A DNA stretch of 64,000 bases from an uncultured Porphyromonadaceae bacterium (GCA_902491515.1 CABUIC010000009.1:486-64485), one strand, 5' to 3'. Positions 24,551 to 44,955 are shown, counted from the stretch's first letter. Program-made: numbers and translations. Notes: a model not told the origin generated them from the sequence alone.

Positions 24551-24737
24551 TCGGTATACGTTTAGTAATTGTTTTGTACAAAAATAGCAAAAAATCGGGC
24601 GTAATCCAAACGGACTCCACGGATTTTCGTTTTTTTAAGTCTTGAAATGCGTGAAGTGTGGCTGTGGAGAGATAAAAAATCACTTACTTTACACCGCAAA
24701 AACCAAGCATAAAAATCCTGTTTCAACTTTACCCGAC

Positions 24738-26636
24738 ATGACCTTCAAGAAAATCATTGTCACGGCCGCCCTCGCGGGCTGCCTCGGCATGCCGTGTGCC
24801 GCCGTGGACTCCAGACTCAGCGGCACCATTATCGGCTCGCCCTCCTCCGACTCCAACGGCGGACAGATTGACCTCGTGAACACCCGCGACCGGGCCTTCG
24901 ACGGGGATGTCTCCACCCACTACCGCGCATACGTGGAGGACTGGAGCTATTCGCGCCCCTGGATTGGCCTCGACCTCGGCGAGGCACACGTGATAACTAA
25001 AATAGGCTTCTGCCCGCTGCCCGACCGCGCCGAGAAAACGGTGCTTTCAGTCTTCCAGGGCGCGAACCGCGCGGACTTCTCGGACGCGATGCCGATAGCA
25101 ATGGTCAGGGAGGCTTGGGGCGATTCCCGCGTGCATTATATTCCTGTGGACGTAAGCCGCGGCTTCCGCTACGTGCGCATGGTCTCTGCGCCCTCGGCGG
25201 CCTGCAACGTGGCCGAGCTGGAATTCTACGGCCATCCCGGCGAAGGCGACGACTCCCGCTTCTTTCAGGTGTCGAACCTGCCGACCGTCGCCTTCAACAC
25301 TCCCGGCATGGAGCAGATCATGAGCAAGGACGACAAAAAGAAAGGCTCGACAGTATATGTTATCGCCGAAGACGGAACATACCTCCTCTCCGACGACAAT
25401 GCCCAGATGAAGGGGCGCGGAAACGCCTCGTGGACAATGGACAAGAAGCCCTTCCAGATCAAATTCGACAAAAAACAGCGTATCCTCCCTGACGCGCCCG
25501 CAAAGGCCAAGAAGTGGACGCTCATCAACAACCACGGCGACAAAACCCTCATGCGAAACAAAATAGCCTTCGAGATGAGCCGCCTCGCAGGAATCGCATA
25601 CACCCCCTACTGCCGCTTCGTCGACGTAATCTACAACGGAGAATACGAAGGATGCTATCAGCTCTGCGATCAGGTGGAAGTCAATCCGGGGCGTGTGGAA
25701 GTCACGGAGATGACCCCGGAAGATAGCGAGGGCGAGAACCTGACAGGGGGCTACCTCATAGAGGTCGACGCTTACGCCGACCAGGAAAAATCGTGGTTCC
25801 GGAGCCGGCGCGGCACGCCCGTCACCATCAAGTCGCCCGACGAGGACGAAATCACACCGGCCCAGGCGAAATACATCACGGATTTCTACAACAGCCTCGA
25901 GGACGCCGTTTTTTCCCGGGATTTCACCGACCCCGAAAACGGGTTCAGAAAGTACATCGACATCCAGAGCCTCATCAACTACTTCATTGTCGGCGAGCTC
26001 GACGGCAACCCGGACCAGTACTGGAGCACCTACATGTACAAGGACCGCAACGACCCGAGGCTCCACGTTGGGCCGATTTGGGACGTGGACCTTGGCTTCG
26101 ACAACGACAACCGCCACTACCCCATCGACAACAAGCGCGACTACCTCTATCTGACGGGCTCGGTTGCGGGCGAGAATTTCCGCTCGGCCATCACCCGCAT
26201 GGTCCTCACCGACAGCGGGTCGAAAAAAGCCTTGCAGGAAACCTGGAGCCGCCTCCGCGAGTACGGCAACTTCACAAGCGAGTACTTCTCGGACCGTATC
26301 GACGAATGGGCGGCGGAAATCGACGAGTCGCAGAAGCTCAACTTCCGCCGCTGGAACATACTCAACACCCTCGTACACCAGAATCCCCGGGCTCTCGGAA
26401 GCTTCAAGGCCGAGGTAGAGGCCGTGAAGGACTATCTGACCAAGCGCTTCGCGAGACTTGACTCTTTCATAGGACGTGTTCCCGTGTCGAGCGGCGTGGA
26501 CGGAGTGGAAACCGCCCCGGCCACGAAGGTCCGCTACATCACTCCCTCAGGCCTCGAGGCCGATCCGGCCAATCTCACCCCCGGAATCTACATCCGCCTG
26601 ACCCCCAAAGGCGCAGAAAAAATAGTGGTGAGGTAA
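24738..26636 (+). CDS. CotH kinase-family protein with N-terminal F5/8 type C (discoidin) domain and C-terminal T9SS sorting domain
   Basis: Signal peptide MTFKKIIVTAALAGC. Discoidin-like block (...FRYVRMVSAPSAACNVAELEFYG). CotH-like core (NASWTMDKKPFQIKFDKKQ..., GCYQLCDQVEVN). C-terminus TPGIYIRLTPKGAEKIVVR. Start moved to ATG 24738. Confidence 0.6.
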   Translation: MTFKKIIVTAALAGCLGMPCAAVDSRLSGTIIGSPSSDSNGGQIDLVNTRDRAFDGDVSTHYRAYVEDWSYSRPWIGLDLGEAHVITKIGFCPLPDRAEKTVLSVFQGANRADFSDAMPIAMVREAWGDSRVHYIPVDVSRGFRYVRMVSAPSAACNVAELEFYGHPGEGDDSRFFQVSNLPTVAFNTPGMEQIMSKDDKKKGSTVYVIAEDGTYLLSDDNAQMKGRGNASWTMDKKPFQIKFDKKQRILPDAPAKAKKWTLINNHGDKTLMRNKIAFEMSRLAGIAYTPYCRFVDVIYNGEYEGCYQLCDQVEVNPGRVEVTEMTPEDSEGENLTGGYLIEVDAYADQEKSWFRSRRGTPVTIKSPDEDEITPAQAKYITDFYNSLEDAVFSRDFTDPENGFRKYIDIQSLINYFIVGELDGNPDQYWSTYMYKDRNDPRLHVGPIWDVDLGFDNDNRHYPIDNKRDYLYLTGSVAGENFRSAITRMVLTDSGSKKALQETWSRLREYGNFTSEYFSDRIDEWAAEIDESQKLNFRRWNILNTLVHQNPRALGSFKAEVEAVKDYLTKRFARLDSFIGRVPVSSGVDGVETAPATKVRYITPSGLEADPANLTPGIYIRLTPKGAEKIVVR

Positions 26637-26666
26637 GAATCTCACTCAACTGCCCCCGGCCACACG

Positions 26667-26708
26667 AGACAAGCGCCCCTCCGCTACAATGCAGACGGGC
26701 GCTTGTCT
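26667..26708. terminator. Bidirectional hairpin (agacaagcgccc...gggcgcttgtct)
   Basis: 12-bp perfect stem between the convergent CotH-like and cca genes. Confidence 0.55.
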
Positions 26709-28178: not shown

Positions 28179-31100
28179 ATGAAGCAAATAATGGACGGCT
28201 GTACGGCCGCTACACACGTTGCCTTCGCGCTGAGCGATGTCGCCACGATATACCCCATCACGCCTGTAGCGGAGATGGGTGAGATAGCCCGGGAGTGGGG
28301 GATGGAAGGACGCCGGAACTATGCCGGAGCGGCATTGGATGTCCGCGAGATGGAGTCGGAGCTGGGCGCCGCAGGTGCCACGCACGGCGCCCTGGCGGCC
28401 GGAGCCCTCGCCACGACTTTCACCAACTCGCAGGGACTCCTTCTGATGATTCCGAGCATGTACAAGATTGCCGGGGAATGCCTTCCCGGCGTGTTCCATA
28501 TAGGCACACGCTCGCTCGCCTCACACGCCCTGTCGATATTCGGCGACCATCAGGACATCATGGCCTGCCGCGCTACGGGCTTCGCCTTCCTTGGCTCGGC
28601 TTCCGTGCAGGAAACCATGGACCTCGCGATAGTTGCGCATCTTGCCGCCATCGAGGGTTCGCTCCCCGTGGTGCATTTCTTCGACGGCTGGCGCACCTCC
28701 GGCGAAATGCAGACCATCGACGCCGTCGACTATGATACCATTTTCTCACTGCTCGACAAAGAAGCGCTGACACGCTTCCGCGGGCGCGCCCTCAACCCCG
28801 ACCATCCCATCCTCCGGGGCTCGGCCCAGAATCCCGACGTCTACTTCCAGAACCGCGAGGCCTGCAACAGCGCCTACAATGCTTTTCCGGGAATCGTCAA
28901 GGCGGTTATGGCGCGCGTGGGGAAAGCCATCGGGCGAAATTACCATCTCTTCGACTACTATGGCGCACCCGACGCCGAGCGCGTGGTCGTGGCAATGGGT
29001 TCGGGCGCGGAAGTCGCCCGCGCGACATCCGAGGCCCTGAACGCGGCGGGCGAGAAGACCGGAGTGGTGGTCGTGCGGCTCTTCAGACCCTGGTCGACAG
29101 ACGACTTCATAGCCGCCCTCCCCTCCTCCGTCAGGTCCATCGCCGTGCTCGACCGGACCAAGGAACCCGGCGCCCAGGGCGAACCGCTGTACGGCGACGT
29201 GGCCGTGAGTGTCCTGCGGTCAGGAAGGCCCATAAGGGTAATCGGAGGCCGCTACGGCCTGTCGAGCAAGGATTTCAGTCCCGCCATGGCACGCGCGGTT
29301 TTCGACGAGCTGAAGAAGCCCGAGCCCATGCGTGAGTTTACGGTGGGCATAACCGACGACGTGACGCATCTGTCGCTCCGCGTCGACCCCGCTTTCCAAA
29401 TCAAGGCCAAGGGCCTGACCGAGACAATCTTCTACGGCTTCGGCTCAGACGGAACTGTAGGTGCGGCCAAACAGATTGCCTCAATCGTCGGCTCGCAGGA
29501 CGGAATGTATGCCCAGGCCTTCTTCAACTATTCGGCCAAGAAATCCGGAGGCTATACCCTCTCCCAGCTCCGCTTCTGCACGGAACCCGTGGCGGCGGCA
29601 TGGCAGATCGAGAGCGCCGACTTCGTGTTCTGCAACAAGGCGGCATACGTCGGGCGCTTCGACATGCTCTCGAAACTGCGTCCCGGCGGAGTGTTCGTGC
29701 TGAACGCTCCGTGGACCGTCGGAGAGATGGCCAAGCGCCTGCCCGCGGATATGCGGCGTTCCCTTGTCGATAAAAAAGTGCGGTTCTACACAATCGACGC
29801 AACGGCCATCGCCGCCTCCGAACAGCTGGGCGCGCGAATCAACACGATAATGGAGGCCGTTTACTTCCACCTTTCAGGCGTGCTCCCCGAAGAGGTCTGG
29901 CACCCCGCGATGCAGGCCATTGTCCGGAAAACATACATACACGAGGGCGGCGAGACCGTGGCCCGCAATCTCAAAGCGATAGACAAGGCCGTCGGCGCCA
30001 TCCGCCCGGTAGCCGTGCCGACGGAATGGGCAACAGCCATGGTACAGGCCGCCCCGGCTCAGGACGTCCCGGCCTTCGTCTCGGAAGTTGCCGAACCCTG
30101 CGACCGCCTCGAGGGCGACGCCCTGCCGGTCTCGCGTTTCACCCCTGACGGCTCCATGCCTATGGGCACGACAGCCTACGAGAAGCGCAGGATTGCCATT
30201 GACATTCCCCGCTGGGACCCGGCCAAGTGCGTACAGTGTATGATATGCTCCACCGTCTGCTCCCATGCCGCCATACGCCCCTACCTCCTCGACAAGGACG
30301 AGATGGCGAAAAAGCCGGCGGACATAGCCACCGCGACCACCAAGGACCCGAAACTCGCCGGCTATCAGTTCAGAATTCAGGTTTATCCCGCCGACTGCAC
30401 CGGCTGCGGTTCGTGCGCCACGATGTGCCCGGGCAACGCCCTGACTATGGTGCCTCTCTACCCCGAAATAGAGAACGAGGAACCCCGCTGGAAGTGGGTG
30501 ACGGGGAACGTGTCCGAAAAACCGGACATCCTGCCTCGCTTCACGGTGCGCGGCGCTCAGTTCCACCGCCCGCTCATGGAATTCTCCGGAGCCTGCGGCG
30601 GCTGCGGCGAGACGCCTTACGTCAAACTTCTAACCCAGCTCTTCGGCGAGCGGCTGCTCATAGCCAACGCCACTGGTTGCTCGAGCATCTGGGGCGCCAA
30701 CTACCCCTCAAACGCCTACTGTACTTTGGGCGACGGCCGTGGACCGGCATGGGGCAACTCGCTCTTCGAGGACAACGCCGAGTACGGCTACGGCATGGCC
30801 GTGGCAATGGAACACCGCCGCGCCCGCGCACGGCAAATAGCCGAAACGCTTGCCGCCGACCCGAAAGCTCCCGGGGAGGCCGTCAGCGCGGCCAAGGCAT
30901 GGACAGCAGCCTTCGACGACCCCACGGCCTCCTATACCGAAGGTGCCCGGCTCGCAAAAGCGGCGCCCGAGCTCGCTCCCTTCGCCGACGTCCTCGGAAA
31001 GAAGAGCATCTGGGCCATCGGCGGCGACGGATGGGCCTACGACATCGGCTTCGCCGGCCTCGACCATGTGCTTGCCTCCGGGGAGAACATCAATATCCTT

Positions 31101-31631
31101 GTTATGGACACAGAATGCTACTCCAACACAGGCGGACAGTCCTCCAAGGCCACGCCGCTGAGCGCCGTCACGAAATATACCCCCGACGGCAAGCGGACCT
31201 ACAAGAAAGACCTCGGACGCATGATGATGACATATCCCGACGTCTACGTGGCCTCCGTGGCACTCGGCGCCAATATGCAGCAGACCATCGACGCACTCCG
31301 CGAGGCCGAGGCCTTCCCGGGCCCCTCGATAGTAATTACATACTGCCCTTGCATCAACCACGGCCTCCGCACGGGCATGAGCCATTCGGCAGTAGAACAG
31401 CGCAACGCCGTGCGATGCGGCTACTGGCCCCTCTACCGCTACGACCCGCGCAACGCCTCCCCGCTCACCCTCGACTCCCCGCAAATCGCCCCCGACACCT
31501 TCCCCGCCTTCATCAACAACCAGGACCGCTACGCCGACCTCCGGCTCGTCGACCCCGCCGACGCCCCCACCCTCCAGTCTGCCCTCTGCAAACGCTGCGT
31601 AAAAGTCCACGAACTGTTAGGAGGAAAGTAG
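28179..31631 (+). CDS. nifJ: Pyruvate:ferredoxin (flavodoxin) oxidoreductase
   Basis: N-terminal MKQIMDGCTAATHVAFALSDVATIYPITP, two 4Fe-4S ferredoxin Cys motifs (CVQCMICSTVC / CTGCGSCATMCP), TPP-binding GDGW. Confidence 0.9.
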   Translation: MKQIMDGCTAATHVAFALSDVATIYPITPVAEMGEIAREWGMEGRRNYAGAALDVREMESELGAAGATHGALAAGALATTFTNSQGLLLMIPSMYKIAGECLPGVFHIGTRSLASHALSIFGDHQDIMACRATGFAFLGSASVQETMDLAIVAHLAAIEGSLPVVHFFDGWRTSGEMQTIDAVDYDTIFSLLDKEALTRFRGRALNPDHPILRGSAQNPDVYFQNREACNSAYNAFPGIVKAVMARVGKAIGRNYHLFDYYGAPDAERVVVAMGSGAEVARATSEALNAAGEKTGVVVVRLFRPWSTDDFIAALPSSVRSIAVLDRTKEPGAQGEPLYGDVAVSVLRSGRPIRVIGGRYGLSSKDFSPAMARAVFDELKKPEPMREFTVGITDDVTHLSLRVDPAFQIKAKGLTETIFYGFGSDGTVGAAKQIASIVGSQDGMYAQAFFNYSAKKSGGYTLSQLRFCTEPVAAAWQIESADFVFCNKAAYVGRFDMLSKLRPGGVFVLNAPWTVGEMAKRLPADMRRSLVDKKVRFYTIDATAIAASEQLGARINTIMEAVYFHLSGVLPEEVWHPAMQAIVRKTYIHEGGETVARNLKAIDKAVGAIRPVAVPTEWATAMVQAAPAQDVPAFVSEVAEPCDRLEGDALPVSRFTPDGSMPMGTTAYEKRRIAIDIPRWDPAKCVQCMICSTVCSHAAIRPYLLDKDEMAKKPADIATATTKDPKLAGYQFRIQVYPADCTGCGSCATMCPGNALTMVPLYPEIENEEPRWKWVTGNVSEKPDILPRFTVRGAQFHRPLMEFSGACGGCGETPYVKLLTQLFGERLLIANATGCSSIWGANYPSNAYCTLGDGRGPAWGNSLFEDNAEYGYGMAVAMEHRRARARQIAETLAADPKAPGEAVSAAKAWTAAFDDPTASYTEGARLAKAAPELAPFADVLGKKSIWAIGGDGWAYDIGFAGLDHVLASGENINILVMDTECYSNTGGQSSKATPLSAVTKYTPDGKRTYKKDLGRMMMTYPDVYVASVALGANMQQTIDALREAEAFPGPSIVITYCPCINHGLRTGMSHSAVEQRNAVRCGYWPLYRYDPRNASPLTLDSPQIAPDTFPAFINNQDRYADLRLVDPADAPTLQSALCKRCVKVHELLGGK

Positions 31632-31892
31632 TGTAATTTGGAATTTGGAATTTAGAGTTTTTTGGGGAGTTTAGAATTTAGAGTCTAGAGTTTTTGCCGG
31701 GGAGTGGGAGGCACATTCGCGCATTCGGGGCGGAGGCGCCGGTCCGGGCAATGGCACGTCCGACTACAATACATTGATATTCAATCTATTAAGTGTAGGG
31801 ACGTGCCATGACACGTCCGCGCCGTAAAGAACATTTCAATACCCGGAGGCACGTGGAGGATGACAATCGCCTAATCGGTAGGTGACATAAAC

Positions 31893-32036
31893 CGAATTCG
31901 CGCATTCGGGGCGGACGTGCCATGGCACATCCCTACATGTAGTATGCTGCAAATCAATGAAACACAAATAGACGCACGGGCCTTGCGTTTTTACAATTCG
32001 ATGATTGATTTGGCAGTTTTGCGACATCTTCACGGT
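31893..32036 (+). repeat. Left copy of an imperfect direct repeat of about 145 bp (double-hairpin REP-like unit plus conserved tail) flanking the Type III RM cassette
   Basis: First 50 nt 49/50 identical and last 38 nt about 36/38 identical to 37115-37258. Contains the 18-bp palindrome GACGTGCCATGGCACaTC. Confidence 0.7.
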
Positions 32037-32039
32037 AGG

Positions 32040-34829
32040 TTATAGGAATTTTTCCTTCATTGCTTCCGCAAATTCGCGTTCAACACTGTGTGTGTAGAAT
32101 GGCATTCCCCATATCTCGAATTTATCGTTTGCTGTCCTGAAATTAAGGATTGCGTCATCTTGAATGCTTTGTTGGAATAGCATCTTCCACTGGTCCGTGC
32201 GTCTAAGATGTTCTCCTTTCGGTTCGATGAAGATTTGAATATTATCGTATTGGCCTTCTTCACTATTTTTGCGCAAAAACAGTACAAAGTCAGGCTCTGT
32301 TGCACGACCATCATCGAATGCAAAAATTTTTAAGTCTTTATAATTGCGCAGAAGGTACACTTCGCTGTACTTCTCTTTCAGTTTGTCTAAGATAGACTCG
32401 ATATACTTTATCAGATATTTTTCTTCTTCGGTGCCAAAGTTATCTTCGTAACCATACCATGCACAAGTCATGAGGTCAAGACGCAAAAATGAATTTGTTG
32501 TTTCTTTCATCGAAACACCATCTTCCTTGCTTTCTTTCCCGATGGCAACCCTATAACAGTGGTCATGGAATACATCTTTAACTTGCTTTGGTGTGAAACG
32601 TTTACTTCCGCGAGTAGCGCTTCCACCTTTAGCAAGCATAGGTTCAATTTGATTTAGTACTTCAACCGCGGTGAAAAGTTTCTCTTTCTGAGAAAGATTT
32701 GTAATGACTTCCTCGCGTCCATATATCGTCACACTTAAATTTGCCAAATAATCCTCGCTCTCAATAAATTGCTTTATAGACTTGAGATTGGGGAATATTC
32801 CATGAAGCGCTTCGAATGTCATGCCGTCAAATCTGTTTAGAGCGGCTCGCAAAATATGCTTGCCGAATTCGCCAAGCCGACAGCTTCTTTTCTGCAATGA
32901 AATTGTTTCGCTTTCCGTAGCTTTTGAAAACACAAGGCTCGTTGACATTTCGCCAGTGCTTATTCTTACAGAAAATTCCTTATCAAGAATGTTTTTGCCA
33001 ATATTTGCAAGTTCCTCATTACGCAAATATACCTCCTGCTCATTGGCAAAAACATAGCCCTCCACATAGAGCCTCGAATTCTTAAAACTATCTTTCAACT
33101 TTTCCACAACCTCTACACTTCTGGGCTCAATTATGCCTGAGGCAGCAAGAGCAGAATTCAACTCCTGTATGTAACGCGGATTGCTGGGACTGTGGTACGA
33201 GAGCGTTTCAAGGTGTCGCAGAGGATTGTTTAGCTGATTATCATACTTTCGCTTAGCGGCATATTCAGAAAGCGGCTTTTGAGCTCCATATGTTGTTTCC
33301 GCATCTACAATAACAGCTTGTCCACAGACGTCTGCATCACAAGCCAAGCCTTCTCCTGAGACTGATGAAGCTTTCTGTTCCGATTTGTCGGTGAACGGCA
33401 GATACCTAGCTCCTCTCCCAATCAATTGCGCCTCACTATTAGTCGTCTTCCCGACGGCACCCCCTCGGGAATCGCGGGTATCATAGAGACGCACTATATC
33501 AAAAAGATTAAGGACGTCCCAACCCTCATTTAGCATATCGACAGCAAATACAGCACGGAATTCGTTATCTTTATTTTCCAACGAGTTGAGATACTGCTGT
33601 TTTTCGGCGCTTATCGTACTCCCGTCCACCAACAGCAAATTGTCCTCCTTAAAATCTTCTTTTATTTCAAGGAGCAAATTTTCAAGAGCAATTCCTCGCG
33701 CGTCAAAATAATTGAAAGCATCAAGCAGAGCCTCTTTTGCATTAGTTTGTATGCGCTGCAATGTATCAGTTGTCAAGTTCTTAACAGTGTCGATAAATAA
33801 GTTGAAGAACTCTTTGTTTTCCTTTATAGTCTTTGACTTTAACATTACGACAGGTTTTATATCCTGACGAATCTGATTACCTAACTTCCTGCGGAACTGA
33901 CTCATTATCACCGCTTGCAAAGCGCGGTCTATAGGCTGCATATCACTTTGTAGTACTGCAATATCCTTAGAGTAACCTTCCTCACGGAATTTTTTCAAAG
34001 GATAATCAAAGATTACCTTGTCTTTGTACTTATCAGCAATGTTAGCATTGGCGAAGTCTTCTGTTGCAGTAAACTCGAGCAAAACATTCGCGTTATTAGC
34101 TTTGAAAATTCGCATCACAGTAGTTTCCCAATCATCGCTCTGAGCATATTCTTCTGAATAATCCTCAATGTCTAATTCCAATTGCAATGACGAGCCGGAT
34201 TTTTTAGTCGCAGTATTGATATGGTGCGCTTCGTCAGCTATCATCACAACCTTCAAATTGCTGAAGTCATCATAAGAGATACCCCCTTCTTTTGGGGTGT
34301 TAAGATCGCAGTGCAATCCTTGGATTGTCTGCAAGCAGAAGTTAATTGCGTCAGGGTCGCTATTCTGAAAGTTGTCAACTTGCTTTACTTCCACACGTTT
34401 GTTAGCAATCGTGATTGAAGGACCGAAAAGATATTTCGATGATGCAGAGTTGAAGAAGTTATCTTTCGTCTTTTCGATAACATTGCCACTGTTCACGAAA
34501 AACAGGAAATTGCGATATCCTTTCTCGTACAGATATAGGATTATGCCGGCCATTATCAGGGTCTTACCGCTACCTGTTGCCATATGGAAGAGCAGCTGAG
34601 GTTTAGCTGCTTTTCCTTCGAAGTCATTCTCCCAATAAGATAAAAAATATTGGAATGCCTCAGTCTGATACTGACGGAGACGCATCATCGGGTTCAATGC
34701 CGTGGAGAAACTCGATGGCATTTTCACACGCTCAATCTGCTGTTTGCCCAACTCCATGCGAAGGGTGTTTTGCAGATTGTCGCGAAGGAAATCGTCTATG
34801 CTTACTTCTTGCTGTTTCTTCGCCATCAT
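32040..34829 (-). CDS. res: Type III restriction endonuclease Res subunit (SF2 helicase plus PD-(D/E)xK nuclease)
   Basis: Helicase motif I HMATGSGKT, motif II MIADEAHH, C-terminal FIEPKGEH nuclease-like motif. About 40% GC against a 60% background. Start overlaps the mod stop (TGATG). Confidence 0.85.
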   Translation of the reverse strand: MMAKKQQEVSIDDFLRDNLQNTLRMELGKQQIERVKMPSSFSTALNPMMRLRQYQTEAFQYFLSYWENDFEGKAAKPQLLFHMATGSGKTLIMAGIILYLYEKGYRNFLFFVNSGNVIEKTKDNFFNSASSKYLFGPSITIANKRVEVKQVDNFQNSDPDAINFCLQTIQGLHCDLNTPKEGGISYDDFSNLKVVMIADEAHHINTATKKSGSSLQLELDIEDYSEEYAQSDDWETTVMRIFKANNANVLLEFTATEDFANANIADKYKDKVIFDYPLKKFREEGYSKDIAVLQSDMQPIDRALQAVIMSQFRRKLGNQIRQDIKPVVMLKSKTIKENKEFFNLFIDTVKNLTTDTLQRIQTNAKEALLDAFNYFDARGIALENLLLEIKEDFKEDNLLLVDGSTISAEKQQYLNSLENKDNEFRAVFAVDMLNEGWDVLNLFDIVRLYDTRDSRGGAVGKTTNSEAQLIGRGARYLPFTDKSEQKASSVSGEGLACDADVCGQAVIVDAETTYGAQKPLSEYAAKRKYDNQLNNPLRHLETLSYHSPSNPRYIQELNSALAASGIIEPRSVEVVEKLKDSFKNSRLYVEGYVFANEQEVYLRNEELANIGKNILDKEFSVRISTGEMSTSLVFSKATESETISLQKRSCRLGEFGKHILRAALNRFDGMTFEALHGIFPNLKSIKQFIESEDYLANLSVTIYGREEVITNLSQKEKLFTAVEVLNQIEPMLAKGGSATRGSKRFTPKQVKDVFHDHCYRVAIGKESKEDGVSMKETTNSFLRLDLMTCAWYGYEDNFGTEEEKYLIKYIESILDKLKEKYSEVYLLRNYKDLKIFAFDDGRATEPDFVLFLRKNSEEGQYDNIQIFIEPKGEHLRRTDQWKMLFQQSIQDDAILNFRTANDKFEIWGMPFYTHSVEREFAEAMKEKFL

Positions 34830-36511
34830 CAGTTAGTTTTATCATAGAACTCATCGTTCTGTTTCTTGTCGGCATATGAAATCTCAAACTCGGAATTATC
34901 AATTTCCGAAAGTGGGACATACAGCATGTTCTTATCGAGACATTCGATTAAGAACATCTTTTGCTCATCAAGGCTCAACGCCTCGAAATCTTTCACATTC
35001 TCGTTGAATGTCTTTGGGTTGATTTTCCAGGAAAGAAATCCGGTTTTCTGCATTTCCTCCCATATATTCTTCAACTCGTCGGCGGTCCCGGCAGAATTTA
35101 TTTGGTCAACGAATCGTTGATTAGCTAATGCCAATTCGCAATAAACGAACGAGCCGCCACCCTGCCAATTATTTCTCTTAGATACACCGCTTTGCTCTCC
35201 TGAGATTACTTTTTTAAGCCTTCTTTGGATAATACTGAGATGCTTGTCCAATTGTTCTGCCAATATAAATTTTCTGCCCATTTTCAATGCTACAGCACCG
35301 GTCGTGCCAGTTCCTCCGAAAAAATCAAGAACAATGTCACCTTCCTGCGTATGCGCTTTAATGATTCGTTCTATAAGTTTTTCGGATTTCTGCCCTTTAA
35401 CCTCATCATCCGGATTCAACAATTTAGATACAGTCTCACCAGCAAAAGATACGATAGCAATGCTGTTTAAATCGTCATATTCATTGCCGTTCCAGACATC
35501 TTCAATTGGATATCTGTCTGAATTCCCTTGAGCTATGGGCTTATATTCTCTTCGGGGAATATAAAACTTTTTAAATGCCAACTGTGTAGCATCTTTAGAA
35601 TAGAAAAGGATTGTATCGTGATTACGAATCCAATTATTATCTACGGTCTTATAGCCTGAAAGCCATCCTATCCGCCAGATTATTTCTCTTTGGAAGTTTT
35701 CTTCTCCGAATATTTCATCCATGAGAACTTTTAGGTAATGGACTTCATGATAATCTAATTGAACATAAATAGCGCCATCAGAGGACAAAAGTTGTTTAGC
35801 AAGTTCAAGCCTATTACGCATAAATGTCAACCAACTTGAACGATTAAAACTGTCGTTGTAGCTAAATGAATCAGAACCTGTATTGTAGGGAGGGTCAAGG
35901 TAAATCAGTTTTACCTTACCGGCGTATTTGGGTAATAAGGAATGTAAAACAAGCAGGTTATTCCCTTTAATGACGAAGTTATCTTTCGAGGAAACCTCAG
36001 TCGGTACAGTTTCGCCATTGCGGTCGTGACGACGAAAGTTTGCGAGGACTTTCGGCTCTGTGAGGCGGTTGATTTCGTCAGGAGCGAGTATTTCGTTCCA
36101 AAACACCTCGTTGCGTTTTGCATCCTCTTTAGTCTGACCGCCTTCGAGTATGCAATCTTTATATGGCCACGAGAGCACGACTTCGCGACTCTCGGATATG
36201 AAATTATCGTTCTCGTCGGTAAGCCCTATCTTGTTTTTAAAACAGGTGTAGCTGTCAGGAAGAAAGCGTTTGTTCATCACAAATTTTTGAAAGCGAACTT
36301 TGTCGAACACGAGCACGCCTTCAACTTCTGTGAAAAAGTTGGCCTTCAATCCATTATTAGAAAGAAGTAGCTTTATAAGGTCCGGACGCAAAGCGAGCGC
36401 AGCTTCGACTATAGCATTCTTAAGCAGAATACCATCTTCAGAGCAGTAGCGGCTTTCCTTGCGAAGCAACTTCTCCAATTCGTGGAAAAGATTAAGGTTA
36501 TTCATTTTCAA
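34829..36511 (-). CDS. mod: Type III DNA adenine methyltransferase Mod subunit (beta-class N6A MTase)
   Basis: DPPYNTG (motif IV) precedes FFGGTGTTGAVA (motif I); low GC; translationally coupled to res. Confidence 0.85.
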   Translation of the reverse strand: MKMNNLNLFHELEKLLRKESRYCSEDGILLKNAIVEAALALRPDLIKLLLSNNGLKANFFTEVEGVLVFDKVRFQKFVMNKRFLPDSYTCFKNKIGLTDENDNFISESREVVLSWPYKDCILEGGQTKEDAKRNEVFWNEILAPDEINRLTEPKVLANFRRHDRNGETVPTEVSSKDNFVIKGNNLLVLHSLLPKYAGKVKLIYLDPPYNTGSDSFSYNDSFNRSSWLTFMRNRLELAKQLLSSDGAIYVQLDYHEVHYLKVLMDEIFGEENFQREIIWRIGWLSGYKTVDNNWIRNHDTILFYSKDATQLAFKKFYIPRREYKPIAQGNSDRYPIEDVWNGNEYDDLNSIAIVSFAGETVSKLLNPDDEVKGQKSEKLIERIIKAHTQEGDIVLDFFGGTGTTGAVALKMGRKFILAEQLDKHLSIIQRRLKKVISGEQSGVSKRNNWQGGGSFVYCELALANQRFVDQINSAGTADELKNIWEEMQKTGFLSWKINPKTFNENVKDFEALSLDEQKMFLIECLDKNMLYVPLSEIDNSEFEISYADKKQNDEFYDKTN

Positions 36512-37033
36512 GAATTCTTATTACCCATTTATATCCGGGAGCTTGGTCTACATGCCTTTACAATAGACATCAGCGCCCGCCCTCCAAAAAAAAGCCATTA
36601 GCTCCAGGATGGCCGGAAATGATTGATTGAATTGGATAAAAGAAAAGCGGGAGCTTTACCTCGCTCATTCCGCCTTCAGGGTCGTAGGAAATACCATTGC
36701 AACAGAACGAGCAATGGTAGAAGCGCCCCGCGGAGTATGTATATGCAATTTATCTCTCCTAATCTTCCATGAGACAAGAGATATACATAGACGTACTTAT
36801 GGGGCGTCTGCTATTGCTTTATCCTGGTTGCAAATTCAAAATTTCCTACGTTTTGAAGGCCAAGAACAAAGCGCCGAGTAAACGCCTTTCGTATTATAAA
36901 TATGACCCGAAGAAGGGTGCGTTAGTCCTCCTCTGAGGCACACCGCAACTGCCGGGTTCACCTGCAAAGATACGACTTTTTTATGAGAAATTAGATTAAA
37001 TGAAAAAATTTAAGATTTCGAGAGAGAAAATAA

Positions 37034-37082
37034 GCGAATTCGGCGAATCGGGGCGGATGCGGCAATGGCGCGCCCCCACATG
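37034..37082 (+). repeat. Degenerate copy of the double-hairpin REP-like unit
   Basis: gcgaattcggcgaatcggggcggatgcggcaatggcgcgcccccacatg aligns to the unit ccgaattcgcgcattcggggcggacgtgccatggcacgtccctacatg. Confidence 0.6.
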
Positions 37083-37114
37083 CAACAAGCTAATAGTCCA
37101 TGCGTTATAGAGTA

Positions 37115-37258
37115 CCGAATTCGCGCATTCGGGGCGGACGTGCCATGGCACGTCCCTACATGTTACAGACTATATACCAGCTCTATACAAATAAATGTGC
37201 GTGCGGGCCGTGCGTGTTTACACGTCGATGATCGATTTGGCAATTTTGCGACATCTTC
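37115..37258 (+). repeat. Right copy of the direct repeat of about 145 bp flanking the RM cassette
   Basis: See 31893-32036. Contains the perfect 18-bp palindrome GACGTGCCATGGCACGTC (includes an NcoI site). Confidence 0.7.
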
Positions 37259-37335
37259 GGGAGGAATGGTTGAAAAATTCGGCCCGCGCTTCCGTGGGGG
37301 GAGTGCGGGCCGTTGTGGTGCGGGTAGGAGGAGGG

Positions 37336-38034
37336 TTATTCGATTGCGCGCTTGCCGCCGGCGAGGGCTTTCCATGCGAGGGCTGCGAGGATAGCACCTA
37401 CCACAGGGCCTACGACCATAATCCAGAAGTCACCCCAGGCGCTGGGATCGAATACGGCCGGGCCGAAGGAGCGGGCCGGGTTGACGGAGCAGTTGTCGAC
37501 GGGAATGCCTACGATGTTGACAAGGCCGAGGGCGAGACCGATGGCCAGGCCCGCGAACTTGCCGAAGCCCTTGTTGGCATCGGTTGCTCCGAGAACGACG
37601 AGAACGAAGAAGAAGGTGAAGAGAGCCTCGACGAGGAGGGCCATGCCCGAGGTTGCTCCGGGCTGAAGCACGTTGGTGGCGAGGTAGGAGCCGGAAGCGG
37701 CTGTAGTGCCGCCGAACTGGAACGTTCCGTCGGCCATATGCATCAGGGCATAGAGGAATCCTGCGCCGATAGTCGCGCCGATAAGCTGCGAGATGATGTA
37801 GCCTACGCACTCACGGCCGGACATGCGTCCCGAGAGATACACGCCGAGCGAGACGGCCGGGTTGACATGACAGCCTGAGATGTTTCCGAGGCAGTAGCAA
37901 AGACAGATCAGCACGAGGCCGAAGCAGAGGCCGATTCCGAGGACTCCGATTGCCGGACCTGCGAGGACGGCGCTGCCGCAGGCGAAGAGCACGAGGAACA
38001 TAGTGCCGAGGCCTTCTGCGAGATACTTGTTCAT
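37336..38034 (-). CDS. aqpZ: Aquaporin (MIP family, AqpZ-like)
   Basis: Two NPA motifs (HVNPAVS, NPARSFG), six TM helices. Confidence 0.85.
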   Translation of the reverse strand: MNKYLAEGLGTMFLVLFACGSAVLAGPAIGVLGIGLCFGLVLICLCYCLGNISGCHVNPAVSLGVYLSGRMSGRECVGYIISQLIGATIGAGFLYALMHMADGTFQFGGTTAASGSYLATNVLQPGATSGMALLVEALFTFFFVLVVLGATDANKGFGKFAGLAIGLALGLVNIVGIPVDNCSVNPARSFGPAVFDPSAWGDFWIMVVGPVVGAILAALAWKALAGGKRAIE

Positions 38035-42046: not shown

Positions 42047-42600
42047 GCATTGCTTGTGCTAATATTGCGCAAGATAATAAAAAAAAATGGAACACACAAA
42101 AAAATGTTCACTCAAAAACGCTCTGAGCGGCGTGTGAAATTTTTAAGCGTCTGAAAGCAATTAGCTTAAAATTTCTAACAGCTCCGGGAAAGCGCCGACA
42201 ACCTCACTGCCAAAAAGAAAGCCGGATATTTACTATCCATACTCCACGGGGGCTACAACATGCCATAAAGCTATACTGAATAACATATTTCTACAACACA
42301 TCTACGAATTAAATTTTTTTAATAAAAATTATTGCAATACCGGTTAGCTATGGTTTTACTTAAAATTTCAAATCATATTCAGCGCTATCCCTTAACAAAA
42401 TTCCCACAACAGCCAGAATTTAGATTTTCATTAAGTCCATTCGCTCTCAGGTTGCCCTGAAGGAATTTGGACAATTCAAAATTGTAAGCTACCTTTGTAC
42501 TCGGAAATGATACAACAAGCCTAAGCATTGAGTGAATGCTTTCATATTAAAACAAATCTGGAATAGACATATAATCTAACATTAAGTACTATGTGTAAGA

Positions 42601-42634
42601 CAAACAGAGCCGCCCGGGAGGGTGGCTCTGTTTG
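42601..42634. terminator. Hairpin terminator (caaacagagcc gcccgggagggt ggctctgtttg)
   Basis: 11-bp perfect stem directly downstream of the rubredoxin stop, followed by a T-rich tract on the plus strand. Confidence 0.55.
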
Positions 42635-42655
42635 TCTTTTCGTTGCGCTGAATCG

Positions 42656-42817
42656 TCATTCTTCCGGCTTGAACTGGTCCTTGCCAACGCCGCAGACGGG
42701 GCACACCCAGTCGTCGGGAAGATCGGCGAAAGCTGTTCCGGGAGCGATTCCGTTGTCAGGATCGCCTGTTGACGGGTCATATTCCCATCCGCATACTTCA
42801 CATACGTACTTTTCCAT
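42656..42817 (-). CDS. Rubredoxin (53 aa); not in the supplied ORF track because it is under 60 aa
   Basis: Manual translation [53 protein letters not shown] with CxxCG...CPxCG motifs. Directly upstream of hcp. Confidence 0.85.
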
Positions 42818-42830
42818 AATTCAGAGAGTT

Positions 42831-44468
42831 TTAGGGGTTGATTAATGTTTTCATATCTTCGTCTATGGTAGTTATCGTACCGATGTTGAATTTCTCCTGA
42901 AGTACCTTCACTACGTCGGGGGTGAAAAACGCAGGAAGCGTCGGCCCGGTATGGATGTTCTTGACTCCGAGAGCCAGAAGGGCGAGAAGTACAATCACCG
43001 CTTTCTGCTCGTACCACGCGATGTTGTACACAATCGGGAGCTCGTTCAGACTCTTCAGCCCGAAAGCATCCTTAAGCGCAGTCGCTATCACAACGAGAGA
43101 ATAGCTGTCGTTGCACTGGCCGGCGTCAAGAACGCGGGGCACACCCTCGATGTCTCCGAGCGGCAGTTTGTTGTAGCGGTATTTGGCACATCCCGCAGTC
43201 AGAATCACACAGTCCTCAGGCAGTTTTTCGGCGAATTCCGTATAGTACTTTCTAGAAAGCATGCGGCCGTCGCAGCCCGCCATCACCACAAACTTGCGGA
43301 TTTTGCCTCTCTTGATGAGGTCTGTCACCTTCGGCGCGAGCTCTATCACCTGGTGGTGGGCGAATCCGGCGACGATCTTACCGCTCTCGAGAGCCTTGGG
43401 TGGCTGACACTTCCGCGCGCGCTCGATTATCTCCGAGAAATCCTTCTTGCCGTCCTTTCCTGCCGTGATATGGCGGGTGCCGGGCATTCCCACCACTCCT
43501 GTCGTGTAGACACGGTCCATGTATGTGGTCGAAGGCCGCGGGGGCACGATGCAGTTGGAGGTGAAGAGGAACATTCCGTTGAACGACTCGAATTCCTCGG
43601 TCTGCCGCCACCATGCGTTGCCGTAGTTGCCGGCGAAGTGCGGAAATTTCTTGAAGAAGGGATAGCTCTGCGCGGGAAGCATTTCCGAGTGTGTGTAAAT
43701 ATCCACACCTTTGCCTTCCGACTGCTCGAGAAGCTCTTCCAGGTCCTTGAGGTCGTGGCCACTGACAAGGATTCCGGGGCGTTCGCGCACGCCGGTTTCC
43801 ACTTCAGTGATTTCGGGGTTGCCATAGGTGGAGGTATTGGCCTCGTCAAGAAGAGCCATGGCCTTCACCCCGCCTTCGCCAACGCCGAGCACAAGAGAGA
43901 AGAGCGCGTCGGTGTCGATGTCCTGTCGGCTCACCTCGGCGAGCGCGTCCTCGATAACGGCATAGACGTCCTCGTTTTCAAATCCGAGATTCAGCGCATG
44001 CCGCGCATATGCCGCCATACCCTTGCAACCATAGATTGCGAGCTGTTTGAGACCGCGGATATCGGGGTCCTTCTCGGCGAGGACTCCGGTAAGAGCCTCG
44101 TATTTTTCATAATCCTCAGGCTTGGCCTCGAACTCCACTTCAGGCATTTCCGGGAGCGCCACGCCTTCCTTCTTGGCGCGGCCGCAGAGAAGGTTCTTCA
44201 GCTCGAAGGCGCGGCGTATATAGACGTCAAGCATGGGATTGTCGAAATTCGCGTTGGTGATTGTCGTAAACAGCGCGTCGATTAAGAAATGCGAGGCCTC
44301 GCGTGAGGCACTGTGCTTTTCGCGCAGGGCGCGGTTCACAGCCGCCATACCCCTCACTGCGTAAAGCAACAGATCCATACGGCCGGAAGTGTCGGCCTTC
44401 TTGCCGCAGACGCCCTGGATTTCACATCCTTTGCCACGTGCAGTCTCCTGGCACTGGTAGCAGAACAT
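42831..44468 (-). CDS. hcp: Hydroxylamine reductase / hybrid-cluster protein
   Basis: N-terminal MFCYQCQETARGKGC Cys cluster. Start set at ATG 44466-44468. Confidence 0.9.
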   Translation of the reverse strand: MFCYQCQETARGKGCEIQGVCGKKADTSGRMDLLLYAVRGMAAVNRALREKHSASREASHFLIDALFTTITNANFDNPMLDVYIRRAFELKNLLCGRAKKEGVALPEMPEVEFEAKPEDYEKYEALTGVLAEKDPDIRGLKQLAIYGCKGMAAYARHALNLGFENEDVYAVIEDALAEVSRQDIDTDALFSLVLGVGEGGVKAMALLDEANTSTYGNPEITEVETGVRERPGILVSGHDLKDLEELLEQSEGKGVDIYTHSEMLPAQSYPFFKKFPHFAGNYGNAWWRQTEEFESFNGMFLFTSNCIVPPRPSTTYMDRVYTTGVVGMPGTRHITAGKDGKKDFSEIIERARKCQPPKALESGKIVAGFAHHQVIELAPKVTDLIKRGKIRKFVVMAGCDGRMLSRKYYTEFAEKLPEDCVILTAGCAKYRYNKLPLGDIEGVPRVLDAGQCNDSYSLVVIATALKDAFGLKSLNELPIVYNIAWYEQKAVIVLLALLALGVKNIHTGPTLPAFFTPDVVKVLQEKFNIGTITTIDEDMKTLINP

Positions 44469-44491
44469 TTTCGGTGTGCCGTCCATAGTCC

Positions 44492-44821: not shown

Positions 44822-44955
44822 ATCGCTTCGTTTTTTTAAATGTCAAGGGCTAAGAAGCCGTCTGCTCTAAAAACACGGAACCTGCGTTCAAAGTTCACAC
44901 CTCCCGAAATGCAAAAATAAAAATACCGGGGCTTGCTTTGTTCGCATAAAAAGAG

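What the first reader, a model, noticed from the sequence alone, without database searches (positions are those of the whole stretch)
31632..37335. Low-GC Type III RM cassette bracketed by direct repeats of about 145 bp, dropped between nifJ and aqpZ
mod and res (34829-36511, 32040-34829, minus strand) are about 40% GC in a roughly 60% GC backbone. The res start overlaps the mod stop (TGATG), indicating translational coupling. The cassette is bounded by two imperfect direct repeats (31893-32036 and 37115-37258) that share near-identical 50-nt heads and 38-nt tails. Further partial copies of the head unit lie outside them at 31716-31768, 31793-31824 and 37034-37082. No integrase or transposase is present. 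This suggests the RM system was acquired or exchanged by recombination between repeat copies rather than by a classical mobile element.
Basis: seen in the sequence. Interest (0 to 1): 0.6.

Follow-up and report, generated by a model that had tools for sequence, protein, structure and literature searches.

The report
Strain-variable Type III restriction cassette between repeats
A complete, foreign-looking Type III restriction-modification operon sits between two housekeeping genes of an uncultured gut Bacteroidales bacterium; related strains have it, lack it entirely, or keep a single-repeat scar, which is a known way for such defence genes to come and go, but the operon also has a conserved folded RNA leader that matches no Rfam family.

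Summary
An intact mod-res operon (GC 0.41 against 0.59 for the rest of the window) fills the nifJ-aqpZ spacer. It is bracketed by two direct repeats of about 145 bp, with no mobility gene.

Six contigs 99.5-99.9% identical in both flanks have a 100-bp spacer with no cassette and no repeat. One diverged relative (L008) has exactly left flank + one repeat + right flank, the product expected from a crossover inside the 50-nt repeat head. A fourth allele (L012) has the cassette plus an extra gene, no left repeat, and a recombination breakpoint inside res.

The repeats are composite and are not recent duplicates. The head (49/50 identical) belongs to a dispersed GTAG-tagged palindrome family (REP-like). 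The middle is unalignable. The tail is 83% identical and specific to this locus.

Best reading: an ordinary RM presence/absence polymorphism, reshuffled by homologous recombination, with loss (or gain) of the cassette through the REP-like heads. [quoted passage not shown]

The most novel item is a structured leader of about 320 nt upstream of mod. It is conserved in front of every related Bacteroidales Type III operon fetched, shows strong covariation, and has no Rfam match.

The parts
28179..31631 (+). nifJ / pyruvate:ferredoxin(flavodoxin) oxidoreductase; conserved left anchor of the variable spacer
   Evidence: Pfam POR_N, PFOR_II, POR, EKR, Fer4, TPP_enzyme_C. It is 99.5-99.9% identical to cassette-free contigs up to 31625.
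31632..31890 (.). Left spacer flank: short AATTTAGAG-type tandem repeats (31637-31695), a degenerate REP-like copy (31709-31761) and an oppositely oriented REP-like copy (GTAG + palindrome, 31795-31824)
   Evidence: The flank is present in the solo-repeat allele L008 and absent from the naive alleles.
31891..31940 (-). Left repeat head: REP-like element. On the minus strand it reads GTAG-GGATGTGCCATGGCACGTCC-GCCCCGAATGCGCGAATTCGGT
   Evidence: It is 49/50 identical to 37114-37163. The same GTAG + 20-bp palindrome + GCCCCGAA motif occurs in 34 of 49 palindrome hits in metagenome contigs. The crossover interval inferred from L008 is 31891-31928.
31941..32036 (.). Left repeat middle (31941-31965, no homology to the right copy) and tail (31966-32031, 83% to 37193-37258); it ends 4-8 nt from the res stop codon
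   Evidence: The tail has no match in any other fetched locus. A terminator-like hairpin lies at 31988-31972 on the minus strand.
32040..34829 (-). res, Type III restriction subunit, 929 aa, full length
   Evidence: PF04851 and PADLOC REase_III 7.8e-119. Homologues are 927-935 aa. Against allele L012 there is a recombination breakpoint at about 33960: about 100% identity on the mod side of it and about 80% on the other side.
34829..36505 (-). mod, Type III methyltransferase, 558 aa (ATG at 36505; the ORF list gives TTG at 36511); its stop overlaps the res start by one base
   Evidence: PF12564 + PF01555; PADLOC MTase_III 3.6e-168; DPPY at 204 and FGGTG at 396. The target-recognition region is shared with the L019/L079 Mods and unrelated to the L013/L084/L087/L088 Mods. 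Junction sequence.
36580..36899 (-). Conserved structured leader: small hairpin + T-run (36888-36869), long covarying hairpin (36863-36669), terminator-like hairpin + TTTTCTTTT (ending at 36638), then the conserved GGAGCTAATGGC (36605-36594)
   Evidence: nhmmer finds one copy upstream of every related Type III operon and one in the window. RNAalifold gives 54 pairs, 24 of them compensatory. 94.2% of cells are paired against 36-47% in the slid controls, and 26 pairs change on both sides against 4-8. There are 60 G-U cells against 11 A-C cells. Single-sequence fold z = -5.1. No Rfam match.
36965..36972 (-). Bacteroidetes-type -7 promoter box TATCTTTG (TAnnTTTG), candidate operon promoter
   Evidence: TAnnTTTG lies at the same distance upstream of the leader in 5 of 6 distinct homologous loci. 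The consensus itself comes from established knowledge of Bacteroides promoters.
37032..37075 (-). Degenerate REP-like copy in tandem with the right head (81-nt spacing)
   Evidence: families D1 and D5.
37114..37258 (-). Right repeat: head 37114-37163 (perfect palindrome GGACGTGCCATGGCACGTCC at 37136-37155), middle 37164-37192, tail 37193-37258
   Evidence: The single unit in L008 is this copy at about 99% identity.
37281..37311 (-). Hairpin GGCCCGCGCT..AGTGCGGGCC just downstream of the aqpZ stop, probably the aqpZ terminator; it stands where the naive allele has its own terminator hairpin
   Evidence: Read directly from the sequence.
37336..38034 (-). aqpZ (MIP family); conserved right anchor
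   Evidence: PF00230. The exact protein occurs on 145 contigs. Identity to cassette-free contigs resumes at 37330.

Best explanation
The nifJ-aqpZ spacer of this uncultured gut Bacteroidales bacterium is a small variable site. In this strain it holds an intact Type III restriction-modification operon acquired from elsewhere. The operon consists of its own promoter, a structured leader, mod, and a translationally coupled res.

The cassette is a minimal operon with no mobility genes. It moves and is reshuffled by ordinary homologous recombination:
- whole-spacer haplotypes are exchanged through the conserved flanking genes;
- diverged cassette alleles recombine with each other, as shown by the breakpoint inside res;
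- the cassette can be deleted, or re-integrated from a circle, by a crossover between the two 50-nt heads.

The heads are copies of a dispersed GTAG-tagged palindromic (REP-like) element that has accumulated in this spacer haplotype. The solo-repeat allele is most likely the deletion scar.

What is shown: gene identities, the four allelic states, the position of the crossover interval, the mosaic structure of the repeats, and the dispersed nature of the head.

What is inferred: the direction of the event (loss rather than gain, about 65:35), dependence on RecA rather than a site-specific enzyme, and activity of the enzymes.
For: Four alleles at one locus:
- Naive spacer of 87-129 bp with a terminator hairpin and no repeats (L001, L002, L004-7, L009, L010).
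- Solo unit of 488 bp (L008).
- Cassette with two units (the window, and L003 which is 100% identical over 20.7 kb).
- Cassette + a 294-aa ORF without the left unit (L012).

The naive-allele contigs L004-7, L009 and L010 are 99.5-99.86% identical to the window right up to 31625 and from 37330. The window flanks carry no L008-type SNPs.

L008 equals window 31602-31890 + 37114-37365. Its unit is the right-hand type, which places the crossover inside the head.

L012 is about 100% identical to the window from 37155 down to about 33960, about 80% identical in the rest of res, and unrelated beyond res. The left tail is 83% identical to the right tail. That is similar to the roughly 80% divergence of the 3' part of res, and fits co-import of both from one diverged allele.

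The head motif GTAG + palindrome + GCCCCGAA occurs in 34 of 49 palindrome hits across 47 metagenome loci, and 31 of those 34 lie outside long ORFs. Variants with compensatory stem changes are visible.

The tail is unique to this locus. Homologous cassettes sit in at least five other chromosomal contexts with no mobility genes and no flanking long repeats.

The exact Mod protein occurs on 9 contigs and the exact AqpZ on 145.
Against: Direction cannot be proved. Integration of a circle into a solo-unit allele through the head would give the same structures.

L008 is a single metagenome contig (one further similar place was reported but not shown). An assembler that collapsed the 37-50-nt identical heads could in principle create the solo form.

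How the cassette first reached this spacer is not seen. The left junction of L012 lies inside the naive allele's terminator and shows no homology, which implies at least one illegitimate event.

No methylome or expression data were available, so activity of the enzymes is inferred only from intact motifs and full length.
Confidence: 0.6

Rival explanations
1. [quoted passage not shown] The solo-unit spacer (L008 type) is the ancestral target. The cassette inserted into it and duplicated the 145-bp unit, so the repeats are the footprint of the insertion.
For: All of Furuta's formal criteria are met: R and M genes are both inside the insert, the insert is under 20 kb, the repeat is longer than 30 bp, there is no mobility gene, and a related genome has one copy at the empty site (criteria read in PMC2853133).
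Against: A fresh duplication should give two like copies. Here the head is 98% identical, the middle is unalignable and the tail is 83% identical, while the L008 unit is about 99% identical to the right copy only. Published cases have repeat identities of 93-100%. The head is a dispersed element, not a unique target. L012 carries the cassette with no left unit. This model survives only if the left copy was later replaced by recombination with a diverged allele.
Confidence: 0.2
2. Site-specific mobility. The perfect 20-bp palindrome in the head is the core site of a recombinase supplied in trans (Xer-like, or a REP-associated Y1 transposase). The cassette would excise and integrate as a 5.2-kb circle, like IMEX or dif modules.
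For: The crossover interval contains the palindrome GGACGTGCCATGGCACGTCC, which reads as 7-bp arms around CCATGG. The same GTAG-tagged element is strongly conserved in contigs of 40-64% GC. Several decayed copies are stacked on both sides, as at sites of repeated integration.
Against: The head is also the only identical stretch of 30 nt or more between the two sides, so RecA would choose it too. No HUH/Y1-type ORF was found in any of the fetched loci by a motif search. No recombinase gene lies within +/-10 kb. L012 lacks the left site. Two direct copies in L025 bracket ordinary genes, a two-component system and an LRR protein. Other cassettes of this family have no such sites.
Confidence: 0.12
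3. Chance bracket. The cassette simply landed within a pre-existing cluster of REP-like repeats, and the repeats have nothing to do with its gain or loss. The L008 form would then be either an independent older haplotype or an assembly artefact.
For: Heads are dispersed elements that form clusters. Furuta 2010 lists 'chance insertions between repeated sequences' as a recognised class. Metagenome assemblers break or collapse at these repeats: L012 ends inside the head, and the 5245-nt Logan contigs match the segment between the heads.
Against: The tails are also repeated and are not dispersed. The L008 spacer matches the window's two flanks at about 99%, while genes further out are 92-97% identical. 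That is not expected for an old independent haplotype. The junction is exactly in register within the head.
Confidence: 0.08

Closest known systems
RM gene complexes inserted with long target duplication / RM-linked rearrangements (Nobusato et al. 2000; Furuta, Abe & Kobayashi 2010, PMC2853133)
   Same: An R+M pair with deviant GC and no integrase or transposase, flanked by direct repeats of more than 30 bp. A related genome has one repeat copy at the empty site. Allelic substitution occurs at the same locus. Type III examples are reported.
   Different: The two copies here are a mosaic (98% / unalignable / 83%) rather than 93-100% identical. The part that actually recombined is a copy of a dispersed REP-like element. 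Most close relatives have a spacer with no repeat at all. The host is a Bacteroidales bacterium, a phylum not among the cases I read in that paper.
EcoP1I/EcoP15I-type Type III restriction-modification systems
   Same: mod precedes res and the two overlap. Mod has the N-terminal TypeIII_RM_meth domain and the order motif IV (DPPY) - target-recognition region - motif I (FGGTG). Res has the ResIII helicase domain. The variable region of Mod is swapped between homologues.
   Different: The operon has a conserved structured leader with two terminator-like hairpins. I know of no counterpart in the enterobacterial or phage systems (own knowledge, not tested). No simple-sequence repeat for phase variation was seen in mod. 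The recognition site is unknown.
GTAG-tagged REP elements / REPINs associated with RAYT transposases (Di Nocera et al. 2013, PMC3733652)
   Same: A GTAG tetranucleotide next to an 8-9-bp stem with a short loop. The element is mostly extragenic, occurs as singletons, inverted pairs and clusters, and stem variants keep their pairing.
   Different: That survey found GTAG repeats in Proteobacteria, Cyanobacteria, Chloroflexi and the PVC group, and only CGTC repeats in Bacteroidetes. No RAYT-like gene was found near any copy. Copy number per genome is unknown and looks low: all copies in the 64 kb are in this one spacer.
Control elements of RM establishment (C-proteins of Type II systems; post-transcriptional delay of EcoP1I restriction)
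   Same: A conserved regulatory module placed in front of an RM operon that has to avoid killing a new host. This comparison rests on inference and my own knowledge.
   Different: Here the module is a covarying RNA hairpin of about 195 nt flanked by terminator-like hairpins, not a protein. Its function is untested.

Membership tests
Type III restriction-modification system | Mod subunit: N6/N4 methyltransferase with the Type III N-terminal domain and beta-class motif order (DPPY before FxGxG, with the target-recognition region between them) | tested here: met
   PF12564 5e-23 and PF01555 5e-46; PADLOC MTase_III 3.6e-168; DPPY at 204 and FGGTG at 396, with a variable middle region.
Type III restriction-modification system | Res subunit with a superfamily-2 helicase (ResIII) domain and a C-terminal nuclease region, full length | tested here: met
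   PF04851 1e-25; PADLOC REase_III 7.8e-119; precomputed PF27159/PF27365 on the identical protein; 929 aa against 927-935 aa in homologues. The nuclease catalytic residues were not inspected one by one.
Type III restriction-modification system | mod-res operon order with coupled genes | tested here: met
   The mod TGA and the res ATG share one base (TGATG).
Type III restriction-modification system | Hemi-methylation of an asymmetric site and ATP-dependent cleavage requiring two inversely oriented sites | not testable with these tools
   This needs a methylome (SMRT/ONT) and biochemistry.
[quoted passage not shown] | Both R and M genes inside the insert; insert under 20 kb; no other mobility gene | tested here: met
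   The heads are 5223 bp apart. Only mod and res give Pfam hits.
[quoted passage not shown] | Direct repeat longer than 30 bp that aligns with a single copy at the empty site of a related genome | tested here: met
   L008 has one unit between the same flanks.
[quoted passage not shown] | The two copies are near-identical to each other and to the target, as expected of a duplication (93-100% in published cases) | tested here: not met
   Head 49/50, middle unalignable, tail 55/66. The L008 unit matches only the right copy.
[quoted passage not shown] | The repeated sequence is otherwise unique, not a dispersed repeat | tested here: inconclusive
   The tail is unique in all sequence fetched. The 5' part of the head is absent from the 185,579 species-representative genomes. 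But the head's palindrome with its GTAG/GCCCCGAA flanks is dispersed in metagenomes. The host's complete genome was not available.
GTAG REP / REPIN elements | [quoted passage not shown] | tested here: met
   All three palindrome copies in the window and 34 of 49 metagenome hits carry the tag.
GTAG REP / REPIN elements | Many extragenic copies within one genome | tested here: inconclusive
   Several contigs per metagenome sample carry copies (for example 7 contigs of ERZ808037), and 31 of 34 tagged copies lie outside long ORFs. Assignment to one genome, and the copy number, are unknown. In this window copies occur only in the one spacer.
GTAG REP / REPIN elements | A cognate RAYT (Y1 HUH transposase) gene flanked by the repeats | tested here: inconclusive
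   A motif search (HxH...YxxNP) over all ORFs of 90 aa or more in every fetched locus and in the window found none. Only fragments of genomes were searched, and a regular expression is a weak test.
Integrase/transposase-borne genomic island | A recombinase gene within the element, and an att or inverted-repeat end structure | tested here: not met
   No such gene lies in 31632-37335, nor within +/-10 kb in ten related contigs. No tRNA gene is adjacent; the nearest is tRNA-Arg at 44981.
Any Rfam family (for the leader at 36580-36899) | Match to a curated covariance model | tested here: not met
   No hit at gathering thresholds in the whole window. At E<=10 only chance-level hits appeared, all far below threshold (mir-466 and Flavo-1 on the opposite strand, ST7-OT3_4).

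The most novel reading that the evidence does not exclude
The conserved leader in front of mod (promoter box at 36972-36965, small hairpin, a covarying hairpin of about 195 nt at 36863-36669, an intrinsic-terminator-like hairpin ending at 36638, then a conserved GGAG..RTGGCT) is an undescribed cis-acting RNA. It would gate transcription or translation of Type III RM operons in Bacteroidales, for example by attenuation that lets methylation get ahead of restriction when the cassette enters a new genome. It travels with the cassette as part of the minimal mobile unit.
Probability: 0.45. Interest if true: 0.65.

Novelty: new member of a known kind. Interest (0 to 1): 0.4.

Why it matters
For the finding as stated, the value is a clean natural series at one locus in an uncultured gut bacterium: a naive allele, a cassette allele, a solo-repeat scar and a recombinant allele. 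The series shows that a minimal RM operon is shuffled by homologous recombination alone, and that a REP-like palindrome can supply the short homology used to delete it. This extends a pattern known from Helicobacter, Haemophilus and Neisseria to Bacteroidales, and it is relevant to strain-level differences in phage and plasmid susceptibility in the gut.

The leader RNA would matter more. How Type III systems are switched on safely after transfer is poorly understood. A conserved structured leader with strong covariation is a concrete and testable candidate regulator, and it is also a new RNA motif for gut Bacteroidales.

Tried and rejected
- **Head as a ubiquitous genomic repeat.** A scan of 185,579 species-representative genomes with 22 nt of the head gave only three chance hits, in Actinobacteria and Sphingomonadales. 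So the full head is not a common element of any representative genome. The palindrome with its immediate flanks, however, is dispersed in metagenomes.
- **Phage origin.** The palindrome and the leader pattern are both absent from IMG/VR.
- **RAYT gene near the repeats.** A motif search found none.
- **REP copies as general brackets of defence cargo.** Two direct copies in L025 enclose a two-component system and an LRR protein.
- **Long repeats as a property of this cassette family.** None flank the cassettes in L013, L019, L078, L079, L084 or L087.
- **Import of the cassette from an L008-like lineage together with flanking DNA.** The window flanks carry no L008-type SNPs.
- **Which of the two res 3' halves is the recombinant one.** Both are about 80% identical to all other homologues, so this could not be decided.
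- **The leader as an invertible promoter.** Pairing runs through the whole 195 nt rather than being confined to two terminal inverted repeats. All homologues are in the same orientation. G-U pairs favour an RNA.
- **Small ORFs over the repeat units and the leader** (65 aa, 84 aa, 45 aa). They have no Pfam hit (the 45-aa ORF was not scanned), and the substitutions between the two unit copies do not look like protein conservation (and my reading of the sequence).
- **5245-nt Logan contigs as circles.** Their length equals the segment between the heads when assembly breaks at k=31 (31898-37143 = 5246 by my arithmetic), so they say nothing about circles. L088 (5241 nt) has no heads.
- **Literature.** No paper in the searched library contains the palindrome sequence. 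I found none describing the leader.


Full report
**1. What is in the sequence**

The region between 31632 and 37335 is the spacer between two convergent-side housekeeping genes. On the left is nifJ (28179-31631, +), with the full pyruvate:ferredoxin oxidoreductase domain set. On the right is aqpZ (37336-38034, -), a MIP-family protein; cydB and cydA follow it.

The spacer holds two long minus-strand ORFs.
- The upstream ORF (34829-36511 as listed) has the TypeIII_RM_meth and N6_N4_Mtase domains and matches PADLOC MTase_III at 3.6e-168. Related contigs call it as 558 aa, so the ATG at 36505 is probably the true start.
- The downstream ORF (32040-34829, 929 aa) has the ResIII helicase domain and matches PADLOC REase_III at 7.8e-119.
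- Mod has DPPY at residue 204 and FGGTG at 396, with a variable region between them.
- The junction reads AAC TGA TGA TGG, so the mod stop and the res start share one base.
- GC is 0.406 for mod and 0.415 for res, against 0.588 for the rest of the window and 0.62-0.63 for the adjacent genes.

The two direct repeats are real.
- The heads, 31891-31940 and 37114-37163, are 49/50 identical.
- The tails, 31966-32031 and 37193-37258, are 55/66 identical.
- The 25-29 nt between head and tail do not align.
- Weaker head copies lie at 31709-31761, 31799-31818 (opposite orientation) and 37032-37075.
- None of these motifs occurs elsewhere in the 64 kb, and shuffles predict none.
- Nothing in the spacer resembles an integrase or transposase.

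**2. The host**

The genes around the locus are typical of Bacteroidales (DUF4492-cydAB, SusE/F-type and GH31 genes, CotH). For the neighbouring CCA-adding enzyme, the closest named proteins are from Muribaculaceae MAGs at 72% identity. Everything closer than that is unnamed metagenome sequence. I therefore call the host an uncultured gut Bacteroidales bacterium, possibly related to Muribaculaceae.

**3. The same locus in related genomes**

An exact-protein look-up with AqpZ returned ten contigs. Aligning them to the window, together with L012 (a contig recovered through a close Res homologue), gives four allelic states.

- **A, naive.** L004-L007, L009 and L010 are 99.5-99.86% identical to the window in both flanks, up to 31625 and from 37330. 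Their spacer is 100 bp, consists of a bidirectional terminator hairpin, and has no cassette and no repeat. L001 (about 97% identical, 87-bp spacer) and L002 (129-bp spacer) have variants of this form.
- **B, solo.** L008 has flanks 92-96% identical to the window and a 488-bp spacer. That spacer equals window 31602-31890 joined directly to 37114-37365 at about 99%, apart from a 6-nt change in a short tandem repeat. It therefore has the left flank, one unit of the right-hand type, and the right flank.
- **C, cassette.** L003 is 100% identical to the window over 20.7 kb. The exact Res protein is found only in this context.
- **D, recombinant.** L012 was recovered through a Res homologue of 89% identity. 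It starts in nifJ and continues with the first half of a naive-type spacer, up to the terminator. Next come a low-GC 294-aa ORF of unknown function and then res-mod. It ends 644 bp upstream of mod, inside the right head. It has no left unit.

Against the window, L012 is about 100% identical from 37155 down to about 33960. It is about 80% identical through the rest of res, and unrelated beyond the res stop.

The exact AqpZ protein occurs on 145 contigs and the exact Mod on 9. This suggests that the cassette is a minority allele, although contig counts are only a rough guide.

**4. What the alleles say about mechanism**

- The cassette and its repeats form a presence/absence polymorphism inside one very tight clade. 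The difference from the naive allele begins in the last codons of nifJ and ends 6 nt before the aqpZ stop. The window's flanks carry no SNPs of the L008 lineage. So in this lineage whole spacer haplotypes are exchanged between near-identical chromosomes. The naive allele offers no repeat to recombine with.
- Allele B is exactly what one crossover between the two heads would leave. The base before the head is of the left type. The A/G difference at 31928/37151 and everything to its right are of the right type. This places the exchange in 31891-31928.
- The same structures would arise if a 5.2-kb circle integrated into a B allele through the head, so the direction is not proved. I favour deletion for one reason. 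The L008 spacer is about 99% identical to the window's flanking pieces, while its genes further out are 92-97% identical. That pattern suggests a recently shared cassette-type haplotype rather than an old independent spacer.
- The two units are not a fresh duplication. The left tail (83%) and the 3' two-thirds of res (about 80% against L012) show similar divergence. This fits one import from a diverged allele, with one crossover in the conserved head and the other at about 33960. This step is inference.
- Allele D shows that the cassette can sit at this locus without a left unit. It also shows that at least one junction, inside the naive terminator, was made without homology.

**5. What the repeats are**

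A scan of the species-representative genomes with the 5' 22 nt of the head found only three chance hits in unrelated high-GC bacteria. A metagenome scan with the 20-bp palindrome found 47 loci, with several contigs per sample.

When oriented, 34 of 49 hits share GTAG-GGACGTGCCATGGCACGTCC-GCC(C/T)CG. Many continue with ..AAC...CGAATTTGAATTTTG, which corresponds to the rest of the window's head. Of the 34 tagged copies, 31 lie outside long ORFs. Variants keep the stem: GGACATGCCATGGCATGTCC in L036, and GGACGTGCGAAACGCACGTCC in L058.

In the window, the copy at 31795-31824 and the left head form an inverted pair of 53-nt arms that are 79% complementary (I1). These are the hallmarks of GTAG-tagged REP elements. 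The 2013 survey of such elements did not report them in Bacteroidetes.

I found no RAYT-like ORF near any copy, so membership of the REP/RAYT system stays open. The tail has no match in any other locus. Two direct copies in L025 enclose ordinary genes. Homologous cassettes elsewhere are not bracketed by repeats.

The head is thus a dispersed element that happens to supply 37-50 nt of identity on both sides of the cassette. It is not an end of the cassette.

**6. Where the cassette comes from**

Res homologues of 72-84% identity sit in at least five other chromosomal contexts in contigs of 42-48% GC. They occur either as plain mod-res or with an SNF2 (DrmD-like) helicase and a 119-aa ORF. None has mobility genes. 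Named homologues are from Muribaculaceae MAGs. The variable region of Mod is shared with the L019 and L079 Mods and is unrelated in the others.

What is conserved across contexts runs from a promoter box to the res stop, and no further.

**7. A conserved structured leader (seen in passing and followed up)**

Window 36580-36899 (-) is 77% identical to the DNA upstream of the SNF2-mod-res operons. nhmmer finds one copy directly upstream of the first gene of every related operon fetched, always on the operon strand. It finds one copy in the 64-kb window and none elsewhere.

Evidence for a conserved structure comes from an alignment of eight distinct sequences:
- RNAalifold predicts 54 pairs, 24 of them with compensatory changes.
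- In the counting test, 94.2% of cells pair, against 36-47% when the partners are slid by 1-3 columns.
- 26 pairs change on both sides, against 4-8 in the slid controls.
- No shuffle out of 500 reaches the observed covariation score.
- There are 60 G-U cells against 11 A-C cells, so the structure is better on the mod-sense strand (94% against 83% paired). This points to RNA rather than a DNA cruciform.
- The window copy alone folds at -102 kcal/mol, z = -5.1.

The layout, in order:
- a Bacteroidetes-type -7 box at 36972-36965 (TATCTTTG; TAnnTTTG at the same distance in 5 of 6 distinct homologues);
- a small hairpin followed by a T-run (36888-36869);
- the long hairpin (36863-36669);
- a GCGG..GAGC/GCTC.CGC hairpin followed by TTTTCTTTT (ending at 36638);
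- a conserved GGAGyc..RTGGCT (36605-36594);
- the mod ATG at 36505.

No Rfam family matches, and I found no description in the searched literature. The likeliest role is a cis-regulatory leader or attenuator of the operon. That role is inference.

**8. Comparison with what is known**

The gene pair is a standard Type III RM system by every sequence criterion I could test. Its activity and recognition site are untested.

[quoted passage not shown] This case meets their formal screening criteria but fails the expectation of two like copies. Part of the repeat is also a dispersed element. I therefore file it as working like those cases (repeat-mediated gain or loss without a mobility gene), but not as a proven target duplication. 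A site-specific route through the palindrome is not excluded, but nothing requires it.

**9. Verdict**

But they are neither the means by which this lineage differs from its nearest kin nor a signature of the cassette.

As an RM islet this is a new member of a known kind and of modest interest. The structured leader is the part most likely to be new.

**Caveats**
- All comparison sequences are metagenome contigs.
- L008 is a single shown contig.
- The host genome is incomplete.
- No expression or methylation data were available.

Noticed in passing
window 36580-36972 (-); also L013:2338-2656, L079:1818-2136, L084:1663-1987, L019:5980-6301, L087:1734-2053, L078:3995-4315: Conserved structured leader upstream of every related Type III RM operon: a promoter box, a small hairpin, a hairpin of about 195 nt with 24-26 compensatory pairs, a terminator-like hairpin, and a conserved GGAG..RTGGCT. 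It matches no Rfam family.
   Followed up: yes
window 31795-31824, 31891-31940, 37114-37163; L025-L071: A dispersed GTAG-tagged 20-bp palindrome family (GTAG GGACGTGCCATGGCACGTCC GCCCCGAA..) occurs in gut and environmental metagenome contigs of 40-64% GC. It is REP-like, whereas a 2013 survey reported no GTAG REPs in Bacteroidetes. No RAYT-like gene was seen nearby.
   Followed up: partly
L013-L018, L072-L077 (e.g. L013:2687-10596): A four-gene variant of the cassette: an SNF2 helicase (best PADLOC match DrmD, 1e-203), a 640-aa Type III Mod, a 119-aa ORF with no family, and Res. It sits behind the same leader, and the helicase may be an accessory to Type III restriction.
   Followed up: no
L012:5191-6075 (-): A 294-aa low-GC ORF with no Pfam or PADLOC match lies between nifJ and res in the recombinant allele. 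In the same contig mod is split into two ORFs (276 + 250 aa) by a point change.
   Followed up: partly
L002 versus window 28876-31426: One related contig (SRR32767420) lacks 2.55 kb from the interior of nifJ, leaving a 288-aa product. This is either a real deletion or an assembly artefact.
   Followed up: no
window about 42548-44931 (next to tRNA-Arg at 44981) and about 24644-26676: There are further presence/absence differences among the related contigs. The cupin/prismane (hybrid-cluster protein) genes are missing in L001 and L008 and partly missing in L002. The CotH-like gene is missing in L008.
   Followed up: no
window 31637-31695; L013:11261-11399: Short AT-rich tandem repeats of the type (T)TTGGAATTT / AATTTAGAG vary in copy number between alleles. 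Similar GAATTTTGAAT repeats occur downstream of an unrelated cassette locus.
   Followed up: no
window 31999-32031 and 37226-37258 (-): The best-conserved part of the tail begins, on the minus strand, with GAAGATGTCGCAAAAYTGCCAAATC. It could start a tiny ORF (MSQNCQI...), but the two copies diverge without a protein-like pattern, so it is probably not coding.
   Followed up: partly
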